A stretch of DNA of 64,000 nucleotides from Thermodesulfobacteriota bacterium (GCA_965116075.1 OZ220467.1:684580-748579); one strand, 5' to 3'; shown: positions 1,931 to 11,243, numbered from the stretch's first letter. Notes: generated from the sequence alone by a model not told the origin. Numbers and translations: made by a program.

Positions 1931-1982
1931 AAGACAGCGTGATTAAGCGTGTTATTGAAGCATCGTTTTTTGAATATGGTCC

Positions 1983-2003
1983 CAACTTAAACTGTGAAGC
2001 GCA
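1983..2003. repeat. solo IS30-IR-like motif cttaaactgtgaagcgcaacac
   Basis: The same ~20-nt motif forms the tip of the IS30 element at 4449-4470 (inverted) and of the IS30 end fragment at 9750-9770. Confidence 0.4.
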
Positions 2004-2689
2004 ACACTTAGGGTTGGGTTCACTACGTTCTGATAAGATTTAGCACAACCTCGCGGAAATTGCCCTGCGGAAGTCGCCGCCAAACGCAAACTGAATTCCG
2101 AATCGACAGCCAAGACTACACCCCCAAACGACCGACACCTTTATACACTGTTCTGGGAGACTTTCTCAAAGAATGATGTTAATGTCCTTTGTTGACTAGA
2201 CGGAACTTGCGGAACAATTTTGAGATAAGGCATTGGTATTATTGATAAAGTAGAAAAATAAAATGTTCTTTACTGGACAGGTTTTAGTTTAACCCCAGAT
2301 GAGTCAGAAACAGCGTGGTCGCCTTTGAATAGTACATGCAATCCTTGAATAACTTTGGGTGAACATTTGGATAAACTAGAGATGGTACGTTTATGGGCTT
2401 TTCTGTTTTTCGATAGGACTCACATAGCAGGATAGCGGGTGGAGAATTTCTGTTTGGGATGCGATCTACATACATGCACAGGATAATATATAAGAAAATG
2501 AAGCCTGTCAAGTGGAAAAAGCAAATAAACTACAAATATACATGGACAGAATATTACACGAAAAACAGATAAAAGTAAACTAATATGAATAAGTTACACT
2601 CAAAAAAAGGTAGATTTTTCCCACAAGTTCAGACTAGAGAAAGCATAGTTGGTGTTCGCCAGAAAACCCCCTTTTTACAGGGATGTATT

Positions 2690-2844
2690 CTAGTGTTGCG
2701 TCAAGGGCATATTTCCTGTACAATGTGTTTCAAAGCGAGGAATTTGCGGTCCAAGCCGTCCTTGCACAACCAAGGATCAGTTGCCGATGTCCGCTACAGA
2801 CACAAGTCCATCTACCCCCAAATCATTATTTGACGGAACACTAG
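2690..2844 (+). mobile_element. 155-bp MITE derived from the IS630-family element (terminal inverted repeats, no transposase)
   Basis: Starts ctagtgttgcgtcaag and ends ttgacggaacactag. Its internal sequence matches both extremities of the full IS630 copies with the middle deleted (for example gtccgctacagacacaagtccatctaccccc versus the revcomp of 6258-6320). Confidence 0.7.
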
Positions 2845-3292
2845 GTTTGAGGTTCAATTCAATGTTTTCAATGCGAATCTTGCCGAATTCTAGTTGTGTA
2901 TTGCGTACTTGTTTCATACTTTCCTCCCGAAGAATTGCTAAAATTGGTCAATTTGTGCATAAATGGCCCAAAAACGGCTTTTTTGCCTCAATTTTCGGAT
3001 AAAAACACCTGATTAGTTAAGTAAAAACAATGCATAATGTCTTTTTCTGACAAACACTAGTTTACCTGCCAATCACCTCTACTACGGACGTGATCTCTTC
3101 TCTGGGAAGATGAATCTATTATGCAACCTGATTGCTACACTCTCATCTCGGGTTGCAATTCCTCTCGGCCTTCTGTCGGCACGCTTACTCTATGAGCCGA
3201 CTTAACGATACAAGGTGATGGACCTACGTTGGAAGCGCACAGGTATGCAAATGCCACAACCAACACAAGCAATTCACCTAATCCCCTATGAC

Positions 3293-4472
3293 CCCTAAAC
3301 TCTATGCGTTTACCACGTCCCCACAATCATCATACTATCCTGTCCGCTGAACTTTGCTGACCACGTTTACAATCGCTTCTTGAACCGAACACCCTCTGTT
3401 CTCCAGCGCTTGCTCAAATACTTCCTGGGGCGTACAGAATCCCAGAACTTTACGTGGACGATTATTCAGCAAGTCTTGTACTCGTTGTACCTCTGCATCT
3501 TTTAACCGACTCAAGTCCGTCCCCTTCGGCCAGTACTGCCGAATTAACCCATTGCTGTGTTCGCTCAACCCTCGCTCCCACGAATGAACGGTATCGCAAA
3601 ATAAAACCCAGCTCCCAATGCTTTAGATACATCCTCGTGATCCGCAAACTCCTTGCCGTTGTCAGACGTCAGCGTCAAACACAAATCCTTATTCGGCTTT
3701 AACTTCTTCTTTATCGCACCGCTTACTTCCTGCGCTGTCTTTCGCTTTACCTTCTGCATCAATACAAACTTTGACCCTCGCTCTACTAACGTCACCAACA
3801 CCCCACAATGCTTAGACCCTATCATCGTGTCAAACTCCCAGTCCCCAACCCGATTCTTCTCCTCCACCACCTCCGGTCGTTCCCTTATATCTATCCTGTT
3901 CTTTATCACTCCACGGCCTGCCCCCTTGCCACTACGGTTATACTTCTTCCCACGATGTCGTAGATGACAATATAGGTCGCCTCCTTGTTCACGGTCCTGC
4001 CAAATGTGTTGATATATCCTTGTATGGCTTATATCCACTACTCCTTCCATCTTCAAACGACCCGCTATCTGTTCAGGACTAAACTGATAAACTGTCAACA
4101 ACTCCTCTATTATCGTCAGCACCTCTGCTGTTATTTTGCGACAACACGATGACGCTTCTCTTCGCCTATTCTCTGATAGCTCTTGGGCCTGCTCGTGATT
4201 ATAACTTCTTCATCCATGATTCCTTCTCAGCTCCCAGCTGATCGCGGAAACAGAACGTCCAAGTCGCTTGGCAATCTGCCGAAGCGACAACCCCACACTA
4301 ATCATAATTTCTATCTGGACTCGTTCATCGCAACTAAGGTGATGATAGCATGATGACATAAGAGACTCCTCCTTTAGTACAGTCTCGGAGCGTATCACCA
4401 TCCCTCAGCCCTTTCAACTACTCGCTTTTAAGAACCCTCTTCGTTATAATCGTTGTGTTGCGCTTCGCAGTT
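3293..4472 (-). mobile_element. IS30-family insertion sequence (~1.18 kb) with frameshifted transposase
   Basis: It encodes an IS30 transposase in three consecutive minus-strand ORFs. The imperfect terminal repeats are cccctaaactctatgcg at 3293 and ccattaaactgcgaagcgcaac (revcomp) at 4449-4472. The element abuts the hsdS fragment. Confidence 0.75.
3335..4401 (-). pseudogene. IS30-family DDE transposase broken by two frameshifts (ORFs 4210-4401, 3565-4122, 3335-3568)
   Basis: The N-terminal HTH ORF contains RQIAKRLGRSVSAISWELRRN. The central ORF contains the DDE region WEFDTMIGSKHCGVLVTLVERGSKFVLMQKV. The C-terminal ORF contains GLIRQYWPKGTDLSRLKDAEVQRVQDLLNNRPRKVLGFCTPQEVF. All three are IS30 hallmarks. 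Confidence 0.8.
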
Positions 4473-4660
4473 TAATGGACGTTCCAAAATTGGAAGAACA
4501 AACAGCCATCGCTGGCATCCTCTCCGACATGGACAGCGAAATCAATACCCTCGAACAGCGCCTTGAAAAAGCCCGCAACCTCAAAACCGGCATGATGCAA
4601 GAACTTTTAACTGGCAAAACACGATTAATCAAAACCGGTAAAAAGCAGGAGGTAGCATGA
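4473..4660 (+). pseudogene. hsdS: Type I restriction-modification HsdS specificity subunit, C-terminal ~60 aa only (truncated by IS30)
   Basis: Reads VPKLEEQTAIAGILSDMDSEINTLEQRLEKARNLKTGMMQELLTGKTRL, the conserved C-terminal helix of HsdS target-recognition domains. It begins exactly at the IS30 end. Confidence 0.6.
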
Positions 4661-5508
4661 AAAAAGAGCTCATCACCACACTTACAGATAATTTTGAGCT
4701 TCATGCCCAGCAGACCGAAATCGGTATTGAATACTGGCTTGCCCGTGATCTGCAGCACCTTCTGGGTTATGATCAGTGGCGAAACTTTGCTCAGGTGATT
4801 TCCAAGGCCAAAGTGGCTTGCGAAGTGAGTGGCCATGAAGTTTCAGACCATTTTGCTGACGTCGGCAAAATGGTCAATCTAGGTTCCGGCGGTAAGCGAG
4901 AGATCGATGATGTGATGCTCACCCGATACGCTTGCTATCTTATTGCCCAGAATGGCGATCCACGAAAAGAGCAGATTGCTTTTGCTCAGACGTACTTTGC
5001 CATGCAAACGCGCAGAGCTGAGCTGATCGAGCAACGTATCCTAGAGCAAGAACGCCTTTCTGTCCGTAAGAAGCTAATACAGACAGAAAAAGAACTCTCC
5101 GAGGTCATATACGAGCAAACAGAACAAGATCGCAACTTTGGGATTATTCGCAGCAAAGGTGACCAAGCGCTCTTTGGTAAAAGCACGCAGCAAATGAAAG
5201 CGCAGTGGAAAGTGCCTAACAGCCGCCCACTTGCTGATTTTGCACCAACCATCATCCTCAAGGCAAAAGACTTTGCTACGGAAATCACCATTCACAATGC
5301 CTGTGAGAAGAACATGAGCACTGAATCGGCTATATCCGGAGAACATATTACCAACAATCAGGCGGTACGCAGAACCTTGATTGAACGGGGCATCCGTCCT
5401 GATGCCTTGCCGCCATCAGAAGATATCAAGAAGCTAGAGCGACGCATTGCATCGCAGGAGAAGAAAGCACTTAAATCACCAGATAGTTTGGACAGTAATG
5501 ATGAGTAA
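4657..5508 (+). CDS. dinD: DNA-damage-inducible protein D (DinD) homologue, 283 aa
   Basis: GIEYWLARDLQHLLGYDQWRNFAQV, RYACYLIAQNGDPRKEQIAFAQTYFAMQTRR and other blocks align with E. coli DinD (GQEYWSARELAPLLGYRDWRNFQKV...RYACYLVVQNGDP...QTYFAIQTRR). AGGAGG lies 5 nt upstream of the ATG. The gene is embedded in the R-M locus remnant. Confidence 0.85.
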   Translation: MKKELITTLTDNFELHAQQTEIGIEYWLARDLQHLLGYDQWRNFAQVISKAKVACEVSGHEVSDHFADVGKMVNLGSGGKREIDDVMLTRYACYLIAQNGDPRKEQIAFAQTYFAMQTRRAELIEQRILEQERLSVRKKLIQTEKELSEVIYEQTEQDRNFGIIRSKGDQALFGKSTQQMKAQWKVPNSRPLADFAPTIILKAKDFATEITIHNACEKNMSTESAISGEHITNNQAVRRTLIERGIRPDALPPSEDIKKLERRIASQEKKALKSPDSLDSNDE

Positions 5509-6257
5509 GGTTGGAGCCATAGAGCGCGTTATGCGAAACCGCATCGTTAAACTGTTTAAAGAACAACTTGGATACGAATATCTGGGAGACTGGAAAGACC
5601 GCGCCGATAACAAAAACATTGAAATAAGCCTGTTAAAGCCATTTTTTCGGAAGCAAGGTTATAGCGAAAAGCTAATTGAACGCGCCTTGCGGGAACTGGA
5701 TAAAGCTGCCGCGCTTGGCGATGGCCGAAGCCTCTATGATGTCAACAAGGATGTTTACCGACTGCTGTGCTATGGCATCAAGGTCAAAGAAGGTGGCGGG
5801 GAGCAAAAAAACCGTCTGGTTGGTTAACTGGAAAAACCCGGAAAAGAATGACTTTGCTATTGCAGAGGAAGTCACCGTCAAAGGCAACAATACCAAACGC
5901 CCGGATGTGGTAATTTACCTCAACGGCATTGCCATTGGTGTGATTGAACTGAAACGCTCCATCATTGGTCTAACGGAAGGCATTTGCCAGAACCTGCTCA
6001 ATCAGCGCAGGGACTTTATCCGCCCATTCTTCACCACCATGTAGCTGGTGATGGCCGGAAACCATACGCAAGGCTTGCGCTATGACACTATCAAGACCAG
6101 CGAGAAGTATTATCTGGAATGGAAAGAAAATGGCGGCATTGGTAAATACAAACTAGATCGACACCTTTCCCTCATGTGTGAGAAGCGCCGTTTTCTTGAG
6201 TTGATCCATGATTTCATTGTATTTGAAGCTGGCACCAAAAAGATCTGCCGCCAGAAC
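5501..6257 (+). pseudogene. hsdR: Type I restriction enzyme HsdR, N-terminal ~250 codons; frameshifted near 5810, stopped near 6044, truncated by IS630 at 6257
   Basis: Three consecutive frames read MMSKVGAIERVMRNRIVKLFKEQLGYEYLGDWKDRADNKNIEISLLKPFFRKQGY..., then KKTVWLVNWKNPEKNDFAIAEEVTVKGNNTKRPDVVIYLNGIAIGVIELKRS (the classic HsdR N-terminal nuclease-domain motif), then a further fragment ending at the IS630 terminal repeat. Confidence 0.75.
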
Positions 6258-6267
6258 TAGTGTTGCG

Positions 6268-6936
6268 TCAAGCAATGATTTTGGGGTAGATGGATTTGAG
6301 TCTGCAGCGGGCATCGGCAACCGACATACGCCAATTCACACCACGCTGGCTTGCGTTGACATGTTGCGACCACGCCGCCGCCTCGGCCCGCAACTCGTCC
6401 AGGTCCCCGATCCGTCGACCCTTCAGACACTGCCGCGTCAGACAACTCAACTCACACTCAGCCACGTTCAGCCAACTCGCGTGCTTTGGGGTGTACTGGA
6501 ACTTGATGCGCTGCCTCAACCGCCTCGCCCGCTTCGGCTCAAAAGCCTCGTACAACGCTCCCGGTGTATGCGTGTTAAGGTTGTCCAGCACCAGTGTAAT
6601 TCTCTCGCAGTTTGCATAGCGACTCTCCAGCAGAGCCGACACCTCCTCCGCCCAGTCCAATTTAGTGCGCCGCTCTCGCACCGTCACCGTGCGCCAACCT
6701 GCCAGCGGTTCACAGAACAGGAACACCGAGGCCATGCCAGCCCGTTGATACTCATAGTCCACACGGCGCGGATGCTCCGTGGTTGCAGGCAATGGCTGGC
6801 GGGTTTCCCCCACCATCTGTACCGGCTGTTCGTCCATACAGACCACTGGCCGTCGCTCATCGTAAGGCTCTTCGTAGGTCGACAGAACATCTTCCATGGC
6901 CGCCACATACTCCCCGTCCGCCTTCGGCGGAATCAC
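6268..6936 (-). CDS. IS630-family transposase, DDE catalytic part (orfB)
   Basis: The 222-aa product contains LVLDNLNTHT...KFQYTPKHASWLNVAECELSCL, the DDE_3 (Tc1/IS630) motifs. Confidence 0.8.
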   Translation of the reverse strand: MIPPKADGEYVAAMEDVLSTYEEPYDERRPVVCMDEQPVQMVGETRQPLPATTEHPRRVDYEYQRAGMASVFLFCEPLAGWRTVTVRERRTKLDWAEEVSALLESRYANCERITLVLDNLNTHTPGALYEAFEPKRARRLRQRIKFQYTPKHASWLNVAECELSCLTRQCLKGRRIGDLDELRAEAAAWSQHVNASQRGVNWRMSVADARCRLKSIYPKIIA

Positions 6937-7404
6937 CCAGTACTGCAGATAGCGCCCCGCAATGCCGTTTTTTTTAACGTCTGGTTGACGGTTTCGTGGC
7001 TGATTGATTCACAGATGCCAACCTCAACCGCCTCGCTTGCCAGCAGCCGTAGCGACCATTGGCCGTAGCCGACCGGTGGCGGCCCCAGCCGTAGCGCGAT
7101 CAGCGCGGCTTCCTGCCGCCCGTCCAAGAGCTTCGGTGGCCAAGTGGACGGGTCCCGTTGCCGCCCGTTGAGAGCCAACTCAAAACCTTCCAGCACGCAA
7201 CATTTACGCACGTTCGCAACAGTGCGCTCCTGACAACCATATGCCTCCGCAACCTGGTGGTCGCACCAGTTTGACCCGTCCGCATCAACTTGTAGCAGAA
7301 TACGTGCCCGGCGCGCTTTCTGACTGCTACCCTTGAGCTTCTTGATGACCTCCTGACATGTCTTGCGTTCGGCCTCCGACAGCCGCACAATGTACTTCTT
7401 CATG
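6933..7404 (-). CDS. IS630-family transposase, N-terminal HTH part (orfA); likely fused to orfB by programmed frameshift
   Basis: Begins MKKYIVRLSEAERKTCQEVIKKLKGSSQKARRARILLQVDADGSNWCDHQVAEAYG. An A8 run (plus-strand tttttttt at 6963-6970) sits exactly at the orfA/orfB junction and is a candidate slippery site. Confidence 0.7.
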
Positions 7405-7567
7405 GTGTTCCTCCTCCTTTGTTGTAGAAAGACGGCTTGGGACATGAATCCCTCGCCTTGAAACACATTATACAAGAAATGTTGCCATTGACGCAACACT
7501 AGTTGAATTTTTTCCCTTCTTTCAGCATACCCGCCCCCTCGGGAACAGGAAGGTCAAATCATCATGA

Positions 7568-7722
7568 CTAGTGTTGCGTCAAGTAATGGTTTTTGAGTAG
7601 ATGGACTTAAGTCTGCAACGGGCATCGGCGACCGACCCTTTTTTGTGCAAAAACGGCTCGGACCACGGAGTCATCGCCTTGGACACATTGCACAAAAAAT
7701 ATAGCCCTTGACGCAACACTAG
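7568..7722 (-). mobile_element. 155-bp MITE derived from the IS630-family element
   Basis: Bounded by ctagtgttgcgtcaag and cttgacgcaacactag, with ~120 bp of internal sequence, no ORF, and the same length as the MITE at 2690. Confidence 0.75.
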
Positions 7723-8013
7723 GTGGTTTTGCTACGCTTGTGCACAACCATGATCTTGACCGGACGATTAAACTTAAACTGACACTTGATGTTTCCAGTG
7801 AGCAGAATAGTAGTTTCCTATCTCTGAAAAAAGGGGTTTTCTGGCGAACACTTGCTTGTTGGCTTCTAGGTGGTTTTGCTACGCTTGTGCACAACCATAA
7901 TCTTGACCGGACGATTAAACTTAAACTGACACTTGATGTTTCCAGTGAGCAGAATAGTAGTTTCCTATCTCTGAAAAGGGGGTTTTCTGGCGAACACTTG
8001 CTTGTTGGCTTCT
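7722..8013. repeat. direct tandem duplication, 2 x ~147 bp
   Basis: ggtggttttgctacgcttgtgcacaacca...gggggttttctggcgaacacttgcttgttggcttc is repeated at 7722 and 7869 with 2-3 mismatches. The second unit overlaps the 3' end of the 7965-8237 gene. The fragment ggggttttctggcgaacac also occurs (inverted) at 2651-2680. Confidence 0.8.
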
Positions 8014-8237
8014 TCCAGCAACCCAGCCAAAGCCTTATAAATATCTTCAATGCCACCCTGCATTAGTTCCCTAGTATCAACAGGTGATTCACCATAAAGG
8101 CTCACATATAAATCAGATAGCCTCTTGGATATTTTCTGATCTATGACCTCTCTCTCTTGCAAGAGGTTGGTGATCTCACCCATCTTGTTCCAGTTTTCTT
8201 TATATGAAATAAAATCTACATTTTGAGCCATGATCAT
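7965..8237 (-). CDS. hypothetical small protein (90 aa)
   Basis: The ORF is intact in the low-GC region, MIMAQNVDFISYKENWNKMGEITNLLQEREVIDQKISKRLSDLYVSLYGESPV.... No recognisable family; coding status uncertain. Confidence 0.4.
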   Translation of the reverse strand: MIMAQNVDFISYKENWNKMGEITNLLQEREVIDQKISKRLSDLYVSLYGESPVDTRELMQGGIEDIYKALAGLLEEANKQVFARKPPFQR

Positions 8238-8314
8238 ATTATAACCATTTCCTTCAGGTTGTCAACAGTTATGTGCGTGATGTAAGTTATTGGGGCAAAA
8301 TGGGAGACTTAAAA

Positions 8315-8437
8315 ATGAAGAAGATTTTCTTGGTTATCTACATACTGCTTGGTTCTGTTGCTTGTGGTGGCGGTGATGGCGGTGGCGAAAATGTAGATGG
8401 AGAGACTGCGATGCGGTTGCTGTGCGAGAACTTTTGC
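8315..8437 (+). pseudogene. small lipoprotein gene interrupted by IS630 copy B
   Basis: MKKIFLVIYILLGSVACGGGDGGGENVDGETAMRLLCENFC carries a signal peptide plus lipobox (LGSVA-C). The reading frame runs straight into the IS terminal repeat at 8438. Confidence 0.4.
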
Positions 8438-9686
8438 CTAGTGTTGCGTCAAGTAATGATTTTTGGATAGATGGACTTGAGTCTGCAGCGGGCATCGGCA
8501 ACCGACATACGCCAGTTCACACCACGCTGGCTTGCGTTGACACGTTGCGACCACGCCGCCACCTCAGCCCGCAACTCGTCCAGGTCCCCGATCCGTCGAC
8601 CCTTCAGACACTGCCGCGTCAGACAACTCAACTCGCACTCAGTCACGTTCAGCCAACTCGCGTGCTTCGGAGTGTACTGGAACTTGATGCGTTGCCTCAG
8701 CCGCCGCGCCCGCTCCGGCTCAAAAGCCTCGTACAACGCTCCCTGCGTGTGCGTGTTGAGGTTGTCCAGCACCAGCGTGACCATCTCGCAGTCTGCATAG
8801 TGACTCTCCAGCAGAGCCGCCACTTCCTCCGCCCAGTCCAACTTGGTGCGCCGCTCTCGCACCGTCACCGTGCGCCAACCTGCCAGCGGTTCATAGAACA
8901 GGAACACCGAGGCCATGCCGGCCCGCTGATACTCGTAGTCCACACGGCGCGGATACTCCATGGTTGCGGGCAATGGCTGGCGGGTTTCCCCCACCATCTG
9001 TACCGGCTGTTCGTCCATGCAAACCACTGGCCGCCGCTCATCATAAGGCTCCTCGTAGGTCGACAGAACATCTTCCATGGCCGCCACATACTCCCCGTCC
9101 GCCTTCGGCGGAATCACCCAGTACTGCAGGTAGCGTCCCGCTATACCGTTTTTTTTAATGTCTTGTTGACGGTTTCATGGCTGATCGATTCACAGATGCC
9201 GACCTCAACCGCCTCGCTTGCCAGCAGACGTAGCGACCATTGGCCGTAGCCAGAGCAGCCGGTGGCGGCCCCAACCGCAACGCGATCAGCGCGGCTTCCT
9301 GCCGCCCGTCCAGAAGCTTCGGCGGCCAGGTGGATGGGTCCCGTTGCCGCCCGTTGAGGGCCAACTCAAAACCTTCCAGCACGCAACATTTACGCACGTT
9401 CGCGACAGTACGCTCCTGACAACCGTAGGCCTCCGCAACCTAGTGGTCGCACCAGTTCGGCCCGTCCGCATCAACTTGTAGCAGAATACGCGCCCGGCGC
9501 GCTTTCTGACTGCTACCCTTGAGTTTATTGATGACCTCCTGACATGTTTTGCGTTCAGCCTCCGACAGGCGCACAATGTACTTCTTCATGGTTCCTCCTC
9601 CTTTGTTGTAGAAAGACGGCTTGGGACACGAAGCCCTCGCCTTGAAACACATTATACAAGAAATGTTGCCTTTGACGCAACACTAG
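8438..9686 (-). mobile_element. IS630-family insertion sequence, copy B (degenerate)
   Basis: Same terminal repeats as copy A and ~93-95% identity. The DDE ORF 8449-9117 is intact, but the N-terminal part is split into 9155-9397 and 9440-9652 by extra indels. Confidence 0.85.
8449..9652 (-). pseudogene. IS630-family transposase of copy B, multiply frameshifted
   Basis: The N-terminal ORF begins ...MKKYIVRLSEAERKTCQEVINKLKG, the middle fragment reads MRKCCVLEGFELALNGRQRD..., and the C-terminal DDE ORF is 222 aa. Confidence 0.75.
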
Positions 9687-9744
9687 TATTTCGGCATCGG
9701 GGAGGCGCAAGATGATATTCGCCGCCGTCAAGGTGGTATTATTT

Positions 9745-9860
9745 GGCGCCCATTAAATTGTGAAGCGCAACGAAACAATTATAACGAAGAGGGTTCTTAA
9801 AGGCGAGTAGTTGAAGGGACCAAGAGATGGTGATACGCTCCGAGACTGTACTAAAGGAGG
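9745..9860 (+). mobile_element. IS30 end fragment (~115 bp: terminal repeat plus first codons of the transposase), inverted relative to the IS30 at 3293-4472
   Basis: 9745-9860 is the reverse complement of 4360-4475 (ccattaaattgtgaagcgcaac...atggtgatacgctccgagactgtactaaaggagg), then diverges. Confidence 0.6.
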
Positions 9861-10142
9861 TTCGCCATTTCTAGAGCTTCAACCAAAAATGGATCAGGAT
9901 AATTCACAGACATACCATGAAACTGAACTAAGTACCTGTCTGATTCCGTTTTCTTTGGAACCCTGTTGTAAACGTAATCACCGAGGGGGGCGAGTTCTTA
10001 TACAAATGACCTTTGATCTGGAACCTTAAAAGAACTTGTTACGGCGGCGTTAAGCGTTTTCTCGCTAGGAGAATGCGGGGGTCATCGGGCAATTCGTCTA
10101 GTTTCTCCTACTCGCTTTGATAAAGTATATTATCCGATCAAT

Positions 10143-11243
10143 ATGGAACTCGGATATTTCTCAATACCTCTTCATCCTGCCGGTTCTCCGCTTTTTCTGA
10201 CGCTTGACCAAGACCTAGAGCAGATGGTCTTTCTTGACCAGGTTGGTTTTTCAGAAGTGTGGATAGGGGAGCATTTCACCGCAGGTTGGGAGAATATCGC
10301 GGCCCCCGATCTGTTCATAGCGAAAGCTTCTACTCTTACGGAAAAAATAATATTTGGTACAGGTGTTTCCTGTTTACCTGAGCATGACCCTTTTATGCTT
10401 GCGCATAGAATCGCGGTTCTAGACAATCTGCTCAAGGGAAGGTTCTACTGGGGTGTGGGAGCGGGAAGTTTTATAGGGGATTTTGAGGCATTTGGCATAA
10501 ATCCAAAAACAGGAGAGCAGAGACAACTGATGAATGAAGCGCTTGAGGCGATACTGGACCTCTGGGATAACCCTACTCCGGGTACGTATAGTGGCTCAAA
10601 GTGGAGGTACACGGTTCCTAATCCTGTGGAAGAAGTTGGTCTCGGAGTGCACACAAAACCTTTCCAAAAGCCTCATCCTCCCATAGCTGTCGCGGGGATT
10701 TCTGAAGGTTCTTTGAGTCTGAAAACAGCGGGGGAGCACGGCTGGATGCCGATGAGCATAAATTTTGTGATTCCAGATGTCCTTAAATCTCACTGGGAGA
10801 TGTACGAGCAGGGAGCTTTTGCTGTGGGAAATAGTAATCCTGACAGGAAAAAATGGAGAATCTCAAGGGATATTTACGTGGCGGATACAACAGAGCAAGC
10901 TAGAAGGGATGTTAAGGGAAGCACTTTAGCAAGAGATTTCCGTGATTATTTTTTCAAGATAGTTCCAATGATAAGAAAAAACCTAGACTTGTTCAAAATT
11001 GATAAGTCAATGCCTGATAGTGAAGTTACGATTGACTATATGATTGACAACATGTGGCTTGTCGGAAGTCCAGAAGATGTAGCCGCAAAGATAGTACGGC
11101 TTTACGAATTTGTTGGAGGATTCGGAGTGCTTTTGGTAATGGGACACGAATGGAATCCAAAAGAGAAATGGGAGAAGTCTCTGACTCTTCTTAGAGAACA
11201 AGTCATTCCCATGGTGAAAAAGAATCTACGGGTAAAGGACTAA
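10143..11243 (+). CDS. LLM-class (luciferase-like) flavin-dependent oxidoreductase
   Basis: 366 aa containing GEHFTAGWENIAAPDLFIAKASTLTEKIIFGTGVSCLPEHDPFMLAHRIAVLDNL, typical of bacterial luciferase-like monooxygenases. Confidence 0.85.
   Translation: MELGYFSIPLHPAGSPLFLTLDQDLEQMVFLDQVGFSEVWIGEHFTAGWENIAAPDLFIAKASTLTEKIIFGTGVSCLPEHDPFMLAHRIAVLDNLLKGRFYWGVGAGSFIGDFEAFGINPKTGEQRQLMNEALEAILDLWDNPTPGTYSGSKWRYTVPNPVEEVGLGVHTKPFQKPHPPIAVAGISEGSLSLKTAGEHGWMPMSINFVIPDVLKSHWEMYEQGAFAVGNSNPDRKKWRISRDIYVADTTEQARRDVKGSTLARDFRDYFFKIVPMIRKNLDLFKIDKSMPDSEVTIDYMIDNMWLVGSPEDVAAKIVRLYEFVGGFGVLLVMGHEWNPKEKWEKSLTLLREQVIPMVKKNLRVKD

What the first reader, a model, noticed from the sequence alone, without database searches (positions are those of the whole stretch)
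3293..9860. A type I R-M locus reduced to wreckage by three IS events, with only dinD left intact
Only the last ~60 codons of hsdS survive, starting exactly at the IS30 end. They are followed by an intact dinD, a frameshifted hsdR N-terminus cut off by IS630 copy A, a MITE, a tandem duplication, a small gene, a lipoprotein gene cut by IS630 copy B, and finally an inverted IS30 end fragment. No hsdM is present. The two IS30 ends are inverted relative to each other and bracket the whole 5.3-kb segment, giving a composite-transposon-like arrangement. The locus is a good candidate for a decaying defence island.
Basis: partly seen in the sequence, partly recalled or inferred. Interest (0 to 1): 0.55.

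Follow-up and report, generated by a model that had tools for sequence, protein, structure and literature searches.

The report
IS-bounded type I restriction remnant, dinD kept
A dead 1.8-kb piece of a type I restriction-modification operon sits between two IS30 ends and is split by one IS630 composite insertion in a Dadabacteria chromosome; only its embedded dinD gene is still intact, apparently through selection, and the case is otherwise an ordinary one of insertion-sequence-driven gene decay.

Summary
These are the hsdS tail (last 58 codons), an intact dinD, a broken hsdR N-terminus, two IS630 copies, an IS630-derived MITE, a 147-bp tandem duplication, an ORFan, a lipoprotein start and an inverted 114-nt IS30 end. 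No hsdM lies anywhere in the 64 kb.

Three points are wrong.
1. hsdR is not cut off by IS630 A. It resumes directly after IS630 B (9686-9746). IS630 A, the 937-bp passenger and IS630 B are therefore one 3.4-kb composite insertion at a single CTAG/TA site.
2. The IS30 element does not end at 3293. Its IRR is at about 1979-2010, 50 bp after the suf-operon Rieske gene.
3. The locus is not an ancestral syntenic R-M. In 22 related Dadabacteria loci the Rieske-LLM gap holds 0.1-5.4 kb of other DNA and never R-M. Intact hsdM-hsdS-dinD-hsdR-ygjP operons exist elsewhere.

On the window's own branch, hsdR shows relaxed constraint and dinD does not, so dinD is probably retained by selection.

The fragment most likely arrived as an IS30-bounded unit. 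Decay in place is not excluded.

Verdict: an ordinary remnant with new members of known IS families. Interest is low.

The parts
1979..4483 (-). IS30-family element of about 2.5 kb. IRR is at about 1979-2010 and IRL at 4454-4483. The transposase pseudogene runs 4359->3338, with an in-frame TGA at 4210-4212 and a frameshift near 3590. About 1 kb of extra DNA lies between the transposase stop and the IRR.
   Evidence: NCBIfam transpos_IS30 scores 177 bits. tblastn with P0121 shows the stop and the frameshift. Window 4482-3429 and 2041-1987 align to the 1.43-kb IS of L036, which has perfect 30-bp IRs. Only three IR matches occur in the window, against 0.04 expected by chance.
2693..2841 (-). Second IS630-derived MITE (149 bp, flanked by TA in CTAG), inserted inside the IS30 3' region.
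   Evidence: 80% identical to MITE1, with the same terminal repeats.
4484..4660 (+). hsdS remnant: the last 58 codons plus the stop, starting at the IS30 IRL terminus.
   Evidence: tblastn against intact HsdS of L033/L034/L035. PADLOC Specificity_I E 2.9e-25. Alignment.
4657..5508 (+). Intact dinD (283 aa, Bro-N domain), with its own AGGAGG ribosome-binding site. Its ATG overlaps the hsdS stop.
   Evidence: NF008573 376.5 bits. Pfam Bro-N. PADLOC PDC-S13 388 bits. 94% aa identity to P0001. Purifying pattern on the window's branch.
5498..6257 (+). hsdR pseudogene, codons 1-253 of about 1030. It has a 2-nt deletion at 5807^5808 and a TAG at 6042-6044.
   Evidence: Pfam HSDR_N and TIGR00348. tblastn and nucleotide alignment to L033/L034/L035.
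6260..7499 (-). IS630-family copy A (1240 bp), flanked by TA at 6258-6259 and 7500-7501. The HTH ORF, the DDE ORF and the A8 slippery run are all intact, so it may be autonomous.
   Evidence: Pfam DDE_3, HTH_32 and NF033545. The same two-frame layout with an A7-8 run is seen in 14 of 14 metagenome relatives.
7502..8438 (.). Passenger DNA of the IS630 composite, about 40-45% GC. It holds a 67-bp stretch, MITE1, the tandem duplication, an ORFan and a lipoprotein start.
   Evidence: It lies between the inner ends of IS630 A and B. The outer flanks are contiguous hsdR. GC.
7571..7719 (+). IS630-derived MITE1 (149 bp), flanked by TA in CTAG.
7719..8012 (+). Two tandem copies of a 147-bp unit (98% identical). 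The unit includes the last base of MITE1 and its TA, so the duplication is later than the MITE insertion.
   Evidence: the repeat finder family D4. blastn 147/147 at 98%. Sequence read.
7965..8237 (-). 90-codon ORF with no family and no homologue other than itself. Its last 16 codons lie in the duplicated unit.
   Evidence: The only hit among 5.8 billion proteins is the identical protein from the source contig. No Pfam, NCBIfam or PADLOC hit.
8315..8438 (+). Start of a probable lipoprotein gene (MKKIFLVIYILLGSVAC...), ending at the left end of IS630 B. The rest of the gene is absent from the window.
   Evidence: ORF. I read the signal peptide and Cys by eye. No significant family hit.
8441..9683 (-). 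IS630-family copy B (1243 bp), flanked by TA at 8439-8440 and 9684-9685. It is defective: a 2-nt deletion and a 5-nt insertion lie in the HTH ORF.
   Evidence: Alignment of A and B shows 82 mismatches and 2 indels. Broken ORFs.
9686..9746 (+). hsdR pseudogene continued, codons 254-274, ending at the IRL terminus of the second IS30.
   Evidence: blastn to L034 1964-2024 and L035 11613-11682. tblastn residues 252-274. Alignment.
9747..9860 (+). Fragment of a second IS30-family copy: the IRL plus the 5' leader up to the ribosome-binding site. It is inverted relative to the first copy and 89% identical to it.
   Evidence: the repeat finder I1. Alignments. IR match.
9861..10115 (.). 255 bp of unassigned DNA between the truncated IS30 arm and the conserved LLM upstream region.
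   Evidence: No similarity to any fetched locus. Homology to L001 starts at 10116.

Best explanation
**Context (shown).** The window comes from a Candidatus Dadabacteria chromosome. Between the suf-operon Rieske gene and the LLM oxidoreductase gene lies an 8.1-kb block of mobile-element DNA, from about 1979 to at most 10115.

**The R-M fragment (shown).**
- Its core is a 1.83-kb fragment of a type I R-M operon: the last 58 codons of hsdS, the whole of dinD and the first 274 codons of hsdR.
- Both edges of the fragment coincide with the IRL termini of two inverted, diverged IS30-family copies.
- The left copy is full length but dead and stuffed with other debris. The right copy is cut down to 114 nt.

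**The IS630 composite (shown).**
- hsdR is split once, at a CTAG site where the reference Gln codon reads TAG.
- The insertion is a 3.4-kb IS630 composite: IS630 A, 937 bp of foreign passenger DNA and IS630 B, with one TA duplication around the whole unit.

**Consequences.** The R-M system cannot work. It has no HsdM, no HsdS target-recognition domains and no HsdR motor.

**Inferred steps.**
- dinD remains under purifying selection and is presumably still expressed from its own ribosome-binding site, as a stand-alone gene.
- The R-M fragment was bounded by two IS30 insertions in a complete operon elsewhere and then moved here as an IS30-bounded (composite-transposon-like) unit. The right IS30 arm was later truncated.
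- The IS630 composite transposed into hsdR using its two outer ends.
For: **Fragment identities and exact edges**
- tblastn and blastn against the intact operons L033, L034 and L035.
- PADLOC, Pfam and NCBIfam hits.

**Single-site composite**
- Window 6257 aligns to L034 1960 and window 9687 to L034 1964. TA lies on both outer sides.
- All eight IS630 and MITE ends sit in C-TA-G.
- Precedent: an IS630-associated composite transposon prefers TA in CTAG (Tenzen & Ohtsubo 1991, cited in PMC2170065).

**IS30 ends**
-.

**Not ancestral at this site**
- 22 related loci carry both flanking genes and none has R-M or these IS elements.
- Those gaps hold either nothing, a thiolase/ChsH2-like gene pair, or other transposases.
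- Intact HTH-hsdM-hsdS-dinD-hsdR-ygjP operons exist at other loci.

**Selection on dinD**
- Changes on the window's own branch are 42 synonymous and 5 nonsynonymous in dinD, against 29 and 17 in hsdR (Fisher p = 0.003).
- Private replacements at sites invariant in the five references are 7 of 238 in dinD and 19 of 196 in hsdR.
Against: - Arrival as an IS30 composite cannot be shown. The right arm lacks its IRR, so no outer target duplication can be checked.
- The two IS30 arms differ by 11%.
- The IS30-hsdS junction was not found in JGI metagenomes.
- Only 64 kb of the 2.39-Mb source contig is visible, so the donor site is unknown.
- In the third reference trio the dinD versus hsdR contrast is weak (p = 0.56).
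- No sigma-70-like promoter was found upstream of dinD. That scan is of little weight for this phylum.
Confidence: 0.6

Rival explanations
1. Decay in place. A complete type I R-M island once sat between the suf operon and the LLM gene. IS30 copies inserted in hsdS and hsdR. Deletions next to or within them then removed hsdM, most of hsdS, most of hsdR and ygjP.
For: The same two IS30 insertions are needed under either model. IS-adjacent deletion would also leave an IRR abutting native DNA, as seen at 1979. The gap is a recurrent site of insertions in relatives.
Against: None of the 22 related loci has R-M DNA here, and the closest has a 105-bp spacer. No integrase, tRNA or other island-integration signature is present. 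The model needs one more event than the composite model.
Confidence: 0.3
2. The IS630 A-passenger-IS630 B structure did not transpose as a unit. A single IS630 sat in hsdR, and a circle carrying one IS630 plus the passenger integrated into it by homologous recombination.
For: This gives the same final structure, with the same single TA duplication on the outside. Direct IS repeats readily excise such circles.
Against: It needs an extra excision and an extra recombination step. The two copies differ by 6.8%, with no obvious mosaic block. Composite transposition to CTAG is documented for IS630.
Confidence: 0.25
3. dinD is intact only by chance. The whole fragment is neutral junk and dinD has simply not yet been hit.
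For: dinD is only 852 bp. From the disruption density in its neighbours I estimate a chance of roughly 10% that it would escape disruption. One reference trio shows no significant contrast.
Against: The nonsynonymous/synonymous ratio of dinD on the window's branch (5/42) matches that of intact references, while hsdR next to it shows 17/29. Replacements at reference-invariant sites are 2.9% in dinD against 9.7% in hsdR.
Confidence: 0.15
4. Assembly artefact: repeats were mis-joined in a metagenome-assembled chromosome.
For: The region is dense in repeats, and the source is a metagenome assembly.
Against: Both outer IS630 junctions return to the same codon of hsdR. The two copies differ by 82 substitutions and 2 indels, so they are not collapsed. 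Both IS30 edges fall at exact IR termini.
Confidence: 0.03

Closest known systems
Type I R-M operons with an embedded dinD gene (hsdM-hsdS-dinD-hsdR-ygjP)
   Same: Same gene order and overlaps (hsdS stop overlapping the dinD start; the dinD end overlapping the hsdR start). Nucleotide identity is 77-83% to intact operons L033-L041. A dinD-domain CDS between type I core genes is recorded in PMC9881135.
   Different: Only 1.83 kb of about 8 kb survives. There is no hsdM, no target-recognition domains, no HsdR motor and no ygjP. hsdR carries a frameshift and two stop codons.
IS630-associated composite transposon inserting at TA in 5'-CTAG-3' (Tenzen & Ohtsubo 1991, J Bacteriol 173:6207, cited in PMC2170065)
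   Same: Two directly oriented IS630-family copies flank passenger DNA. The unit is inserted at one CTAG site, with the TA duplicated.
   Different: This is a natural example in a Dadabacteria genome. The transposase is at most 68% identical to any metagenome relative found. One arm is defective. The passenger itself carries a MITE of the same family.
Tn6330 (ISApl1-mcr-1-ISApl1), an IS30-family composite transposon that decays by loss of its arms (PMC5821093)
   Same: IS30-family copies bracket a short captured segment, and one arm has been partly lost.
   Different: The arms here are inverted with the IRLs facing inward (direct repeats in Tn6330, from my own knowledge). They are 11% diverged. 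The cargo is a broken R-M fragment. Mobility is not demonstrated.
E. coli DinD (NF008573) and PADLOC candidate PDC-S13
   Same: Full-length equivalog-level match (376.5 bits). PDC-S13 scores 388 bits. As in E. coli, the gene now stands without working R-M partners.
   Different: Its function here is untested. E. coli DinD is SOS-regulated and modulates RecA (my own knowledge, not checked here). No regulatory site was examined.

Membership tests
Functional type I R-M system | HsdM methyltransferase gene present | tested here: not met
   tblastn with HsdM of L033 and L035 finds nothing in the 64-kb window at E <= 0.01.
Functional type I R-M system | HsdS with two target-recognition domains | tested here: not met
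   Only the last 58 residues (the C-terminal conserved region) are present.
Functional type I R-M system | Full-length HsdR with nuclease, motor and C-terminal domains | tested here: not met
   Residues 1-274 of about 1030 only, with a 2-nt deletion, a TAG at 6042-6044, a TAG at the IS630 target and a 3.4-kb insertion.
HsdS and HsdR families (fragment identity) | Significant profile or sequence match to the family | tested here: met
   hsdS fragment: PADLOC Specificity_I E 2.9e-25; tblastn E down to 1e-27. hsdR fragment: Pfam HSDR_N 83 bits; PADLOC REase_I E 3.5e-37.
DinD (NCBIfam NF008573 equivalog) | Score above the curated cut-off over the full length | tested here: met
   376.5 bits against 242; residues 1-278 match profile positions 1-287 of 288.
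IS30 family | IS30-type transposase | tested here: met
   NF033563 177 bits against a cut-off of 80. 60% aa identity to P0121. The gene is a pseudogene.
IS30 family | Terminal inverted repeats of about 20-30 bp | tested here: met
   IRL at 4454-4483 and IRR at 1979-2010 share a 20/21 core. Both match the perfect 30-bp IRs of the L036 element.
IS30 family | 2-3 bp target duplication flanking one element | tested here: not met
   The flanks of 1979 (..ATGG) and 4483 (TTCC..) differ. This is expected if the two sides come from different DNA (read).
IS630 family | DDE_3 / IS630 transposase, terminal IRs, TA duplication | tested here: met
   NF033545 134 bits and Pfam DDE_3 87 bits. The 16-nt IR occurs 8 times against 0.01 expected. 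TA within CTAG at every end.
Composite transposon (IS630 arms) | Two IS copies around a passenger, with the whole unit in one target site with one duplication | tested here: met
   The outer flanks are adjacent codons of hsdR in three references, and TA lies on both sides.
Composite transposon (IS630 arms) | The same unit found at another site (proof of mobility) | tested here: inconclusive
   The passenger ORF occurs only in the source contig among 5.8 billion proteins. The rest of the genome is not available.
Composite transposon (IS30 arms) | Two complete arms with outer ends and a shared outer target duplication | tested here: not met
   The right arm is only 114 nt and has no IRR. No fourth IR exists in the window.
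Composite transposon (IS30 arms) | The same junction found in another context | tested here: inconclusive
   The 26-nt IS30-hsdS junction has no exact match in JGI metagenome contigs. The source lineage is poorly represented there.
MITE | Short, non-coding, with the ends of an autonomous IS and the same target duplication | tested here: met
   Two 149-bp elements whose two halves match the IS630 ends at 77-90%, flanked by TA in CTAG.

The most novel reading that the evidence does not exclude
dinD-type genes embedded in type I R-M operons (PADLOC candidate PDC-S13) may have a function that does not need the R-M enzyme. Here one has been kept under purifying selection after its R-M partners were destroyed, and it was moved to a new chromosomal site on an IS30-bounded fragment. 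That would make IS30 composites a vehicle for spreading orphan dinD genes among sponge-associated bacteria.
Probability: 0.3. Interest if true: 0.4.

Novelty: new member of a known kind. Interest (0 to 1): 0.2.

Why it matters
The practical value is a corrected annotation. What looks like five or six separate truncations is really two nested IS-bounded units. The proposed 'decaying defence island at a syntenic site' is a displaced fragment in a recurrent IS landing zone.

Two smaller points have some wider use.
- It is a natural IS630 composite inserted at a single CTAG site, matching behaviour shown experimentally in 1991.
- There is sequence evidence that dinD outlives its R-M operon under selection. 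This bears on whether the widespread, highly conserved R-M-embedded dinD genes act independently of restriction.

The IS30 transposase (at most 60% aa identity to anything found) and the IS630 transposase (at most 68%) represent undescribed members of their families.

Tried and rejected
- An IS30 IRR near 3293. Local alignment with the IRL gave only chance scores. The IRR was then located at about 1979 through the L036 relative.
- A long duplication of the Rieske-LLM spacer on both sides of the block, which would suggest Campbell-type integration. The similarity is not above shuffled controls.
- IS30-dimer-mediated inversion as the origin of the IRL-inward geometry. It predicts hsdR and hsdS remainders on the outer flanks, and these are native DNA instead. 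This is reasoning only.
- Exact-protein look-ups of dinD, the Rieske protein, LLM and the ORFan in the contig index all returned nothing, so the source contig could not be fetched.
- The representative search with ORF 2284-2511 returned only short fragments that share an N-terminal transposase-like motif. The family was not established.
- The promoter scan upstream of dinD found nothing on the + strand.
- TRF did not detect the two-copy 147-bp duplication.
- The IS630 IR was absent from all 121 fetched loci.

Full report
**Origin and setting**

A search of one genome per species with the LLM oxidoreductase (10143-11243) returned 31 loci. Almost all are from Candidatus Dadabacteria / 'Thermodesulfobacteriota' MAGs (74-86% aa identity); a few more distant hits (47-63% aa) are from other lineages such as Chloroflexi. 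The order SufD-Rieske-[gap]-LLM-CysH-Pit is conserved in the 22 loci that reach both sides. The window's own proteins sit on a 2,386,527-bp contig held by NCBI and ENA, but its DNA could not be fetched. The first 28 kb of the window is about 43% GC.

**Checking the observation**

ORF listing, family scans and repeat finding confirm almost every element.
- The hsdS call was weak in Pfam (18.6 bits, below the 22-bit cut-off). It is secure with PADLOC Specificity_I models (E 2.9e-25, model positions 390-439 of 443). tblastn with intact HsdS proteins also confirms it: the last 58 residues, 74-83% identity.
- dinD is a full-length equivalog-level match (NF008573, 376.5 bits against 242).
- The hsdR pieces match HSDR_N and TIGR00348.
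- The transposases are IS30 family (177 bits) and IS630 family (134 bits).
- None of these IS elements occurs elsewhere in the 64 kb. No hsdM, hsdR remainder or ygjP is present anywhere in the window.

**Reference operons**

dinD homologues are numerous and very conserved: at least 75% identity across the best 120 clusters. Looking up the contigs of close homologues gave eight loci (L033-L035, L037-L041). The complete ones read (HTH_17)-hsdM-hsdS-dinD-hsdR-ygjP-like. So dinD between hsdS and hsdR is the normal layout of this operon type. A dinD-domain CDS between type I core genes is also recorded in PMC9881135.

**The key correction: hsdR and the two IS630 copies**

Nucleotide and protein comparison with these operons gives three results.
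- Homology begins at 4484, immediately after the IS30 IRL.
- It runs without indels through dinD and continues in hsdR to 6257, which is residue 253.
- It then resumes at 9686-9746 (residues 254-274), directly after IS630 B. Window 6257 aligns to L034 1960 and window 9687 to L034 1964.

So IS630 A (6260-7499), the 937 bp that follow (7502-8438) and IS630 B (8441-9683) are a single 3.4-kb insertion at one target. TA lies on both outer sides (6258-6259 and 9684-9685). Every end of both copies and both MITEs lies in C-TA-G, the classical IS630 target. A composite IS630 transposon preferring TA in CTAG was described by Tenzen and Ohtsubo in 1991 (reference list of PMC2170065).

At the target the references read CAA or CAG (Gln) and the window reads TAG. 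The hsdR piece also carries a 2-nt deletion at 5807^5808 and a CAG-to-TAG change at 6042-6044.

The lipoprotein start, the ORFan, MITE1 and the tandem duplication are therefore passenger DNA brought in from another site. They are not neighbours of hsdR that were damaged in place.

**State of the IS630 copies**

In 23 metagenome relatives (62-68% aa) the frame of the DDE ORF never extends back into an HTH domain. In the 14 I inspected, the HTH ORF lies in another frame, with a conserved run of seven or eight A between the two. Slippage of this kind is documented for IS630-family elements (PMC5009743).
- Copy A has both ORFs and the A8 run, so it is not 'frameshifted' and may be active.
- Copy B differs from A by 82 substitutions, a 2-nt deletion and a 5-nt insertion in the HTH ORF, and is defective.

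Both copies are 59-63% GC in a 43% GC genome.

**The IS30 element**
- Its transposase (4359->3338) has an in-frame TGA at 4210-4212 and a frameshift near 3590.
- The nearest protein among 5.8 billion is only 60% identical (P0121). It lies in the genome of the closest relative (L036).
- That element is 1.43 kb long with perfect 30-bp IRs.
- The window aligns to it from the IRL (4482) to 3429, and again at 2041-1987, which covers its IRR and subterminal 55 nt.
- Only three matches to the IR core exist in the window (1987 +, 4475 -, 9753 +), against 0.04 expected by chance. There is nothing IR-like at 3293.

The IS30-related DNA therefore begins at about 1979, 50 bp after the Rieske stop codon. 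The element carries about 1 kb of extra material between the transposase stop and the IRR. This includes a second MITE (2693-2841) and a short transposase N-terminal fragment.

The right-hand IS30 piece (9747-9860) is an IRL plus leader up to the ribosome-binding site. It is inverted and 89% identical to the left copy.

**Is this an ancestral R-M site?**

It is not, as far as the data go. In the 22 related loci the Rieske-LLM gap varies.
- It is 105-304 bp in five loci, including the closest relative at 105 bp.
- It is about 1.8-2.1 kb in fifteen. In the one I examined (L002) the gap holds a thiolase / ChsH2-like gene pair.
- It is 4.7-5.4 kb in two, where DDE transposase genes have been added.

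None contains hsdS, dinD, hsdR, IS30 or IS630 sequence. The gap is a recurrent landing place for IS elements, and the R-M piece is foreign to it.

**How the fragment got there**

Two models remain.
- **(a) Movement as a unit.** Two IS30 copies inserted in hsdS and hsdR of a complete operon elsewhere. The IS30-fragment-IS30 unit then moved here, and the right arm was later truncated.
- **(b) Decay in place.** A whole operon was once here and was trimmed by IS30-associated deletions.

Model (a) needs one event fewer and no unexplained island integration. The precedent is the IS30-family composite Tn6330 and its loss of arms (PMC5821093). The outer target duplication cannot be checked because the right IRR is gone. 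The junction was not found in JGI metagenomes. I put (a) at roughly 0.55 and (b) at 0.3.

**Why dinD is intact**

I compared the window with two intact references at a time and counted changes private to each branch.
- dinD on the window branch has 42 synonymous and 5 nonsynonymous changes, like the references.
- The adjacent hsdR piece has 29 and 17 (Fisher p = 0.003 against dinD and 0.0002 against reference hsdR).
- A second trio gives the same direction (p = 0.05). A third, more distant trio is not significant.
- At sites invariant in five references, the window has 19 private replacements of 196 in hsdR and 7 of 238 in dinD.

So dinD has stayed under purifying selection while hsdR decayed. 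dinD has its own AGGAGG ribosome-binding site. It matches the PADLOC single-gene defence candidate PDC-S13 (388 bits). Its promoter and function here are not established.

**Small features**
- The 147-bp duplication (98% identical) starts with the last base of MITE1 plus its TA and ends in CT microhomology. It is a later tandem duplication, not a transposition product.
- The 90-codon ORF has no homologue but itself.
- The 'lipoprotein' is only a 41-codon signal-peptide/Cys start.

**Verdict**

The object is an ordinary product of IS activity: a displaced, dead type I R-M fragment nested in IS30 and IS630 units, with one gene still under selection. It contains new members of the IS30 and IS630 families and a natural IS630 composite. 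Nothing lies outside known kinds.

Noticed in passing
window 28365-63998 (+), running off the window end: One stop-free reading frame of at least 11,878 codons, at 58-70% GC against about 43% for the preceding 28 kb, with a sharp step at about 28 kb. The three 1500-residue samples I scanned are full of fibronectin type III domains; the two later samples also carry Calx-beta and PKD domains. It is a giant repeat protein gene of anomalous composition.
   Followed up: partly
window 2410-2511 (-): A short ORF carries MYVDRIPNRNSPPAILL.ESYR. This N-terminal motif is shared with many short ORFs in the protein library. From memory it is the start of a transposase family. It is probably one more IS fragment inside the IS30 3' region.
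   Followed up: partly
window 2652-2675 (+), 7828-7851 (-), 7974-7997 (-): The 24-nt motif GTGTTCGCCAGAAAACCCCCTTTT occurs three times (none expected by chance). One copy lies next to MITE2 and one lies inside each copy of the 147-bp duplication. Its nature is unexplained.
   Followed up: partly
window 6957-6964 (IS630 A), 9138-9145 (IS630 B); L042-L120: This IS630 clade has a conserved run of 7-8 A between an HTH ORF and a DDE ORF that lie in different frames. It was seen in 14 of 14 relatives inspected, which points to programmed slippage rather than decay.
   Followed up: yes
window 6258-6260 and 9684-9686: The hsdR codon at the IS630 target is TAG where intact relatives have CAA or CAG. 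One C-to-T change from CAG would create both a stop codon and the preferred CTAG target, so hsdR may already have been dead when the composite landed.
   Followed up: partly
L011 6249-8027; L012 4651-6393 and 7069-8511: In two related Dadabacteria the same Rieske-LLM gap is enlarged by DDE transposase genes. The one in L011 has an N-terminal match to the Druantia DruA Pfam family.
   Followed up: partly
L039 9279-10004; L041 2036-2761: Some intact operons of this type carry an extra TIR-domain gene (CAP12-PCTIR_TIR) between hsdS and dinD. In L037-L039 and L041 the operon lies next to a GmrSD gene, and L034 has a GmrSD_N-domain gene close to hsdR.
   Followed up: no
window 9861-10115: 255 bp between the truncated IS30 arm and the conserved LLM upstream region match nothing that was fetched. 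Their origin is unknown.
   Followed up: partly
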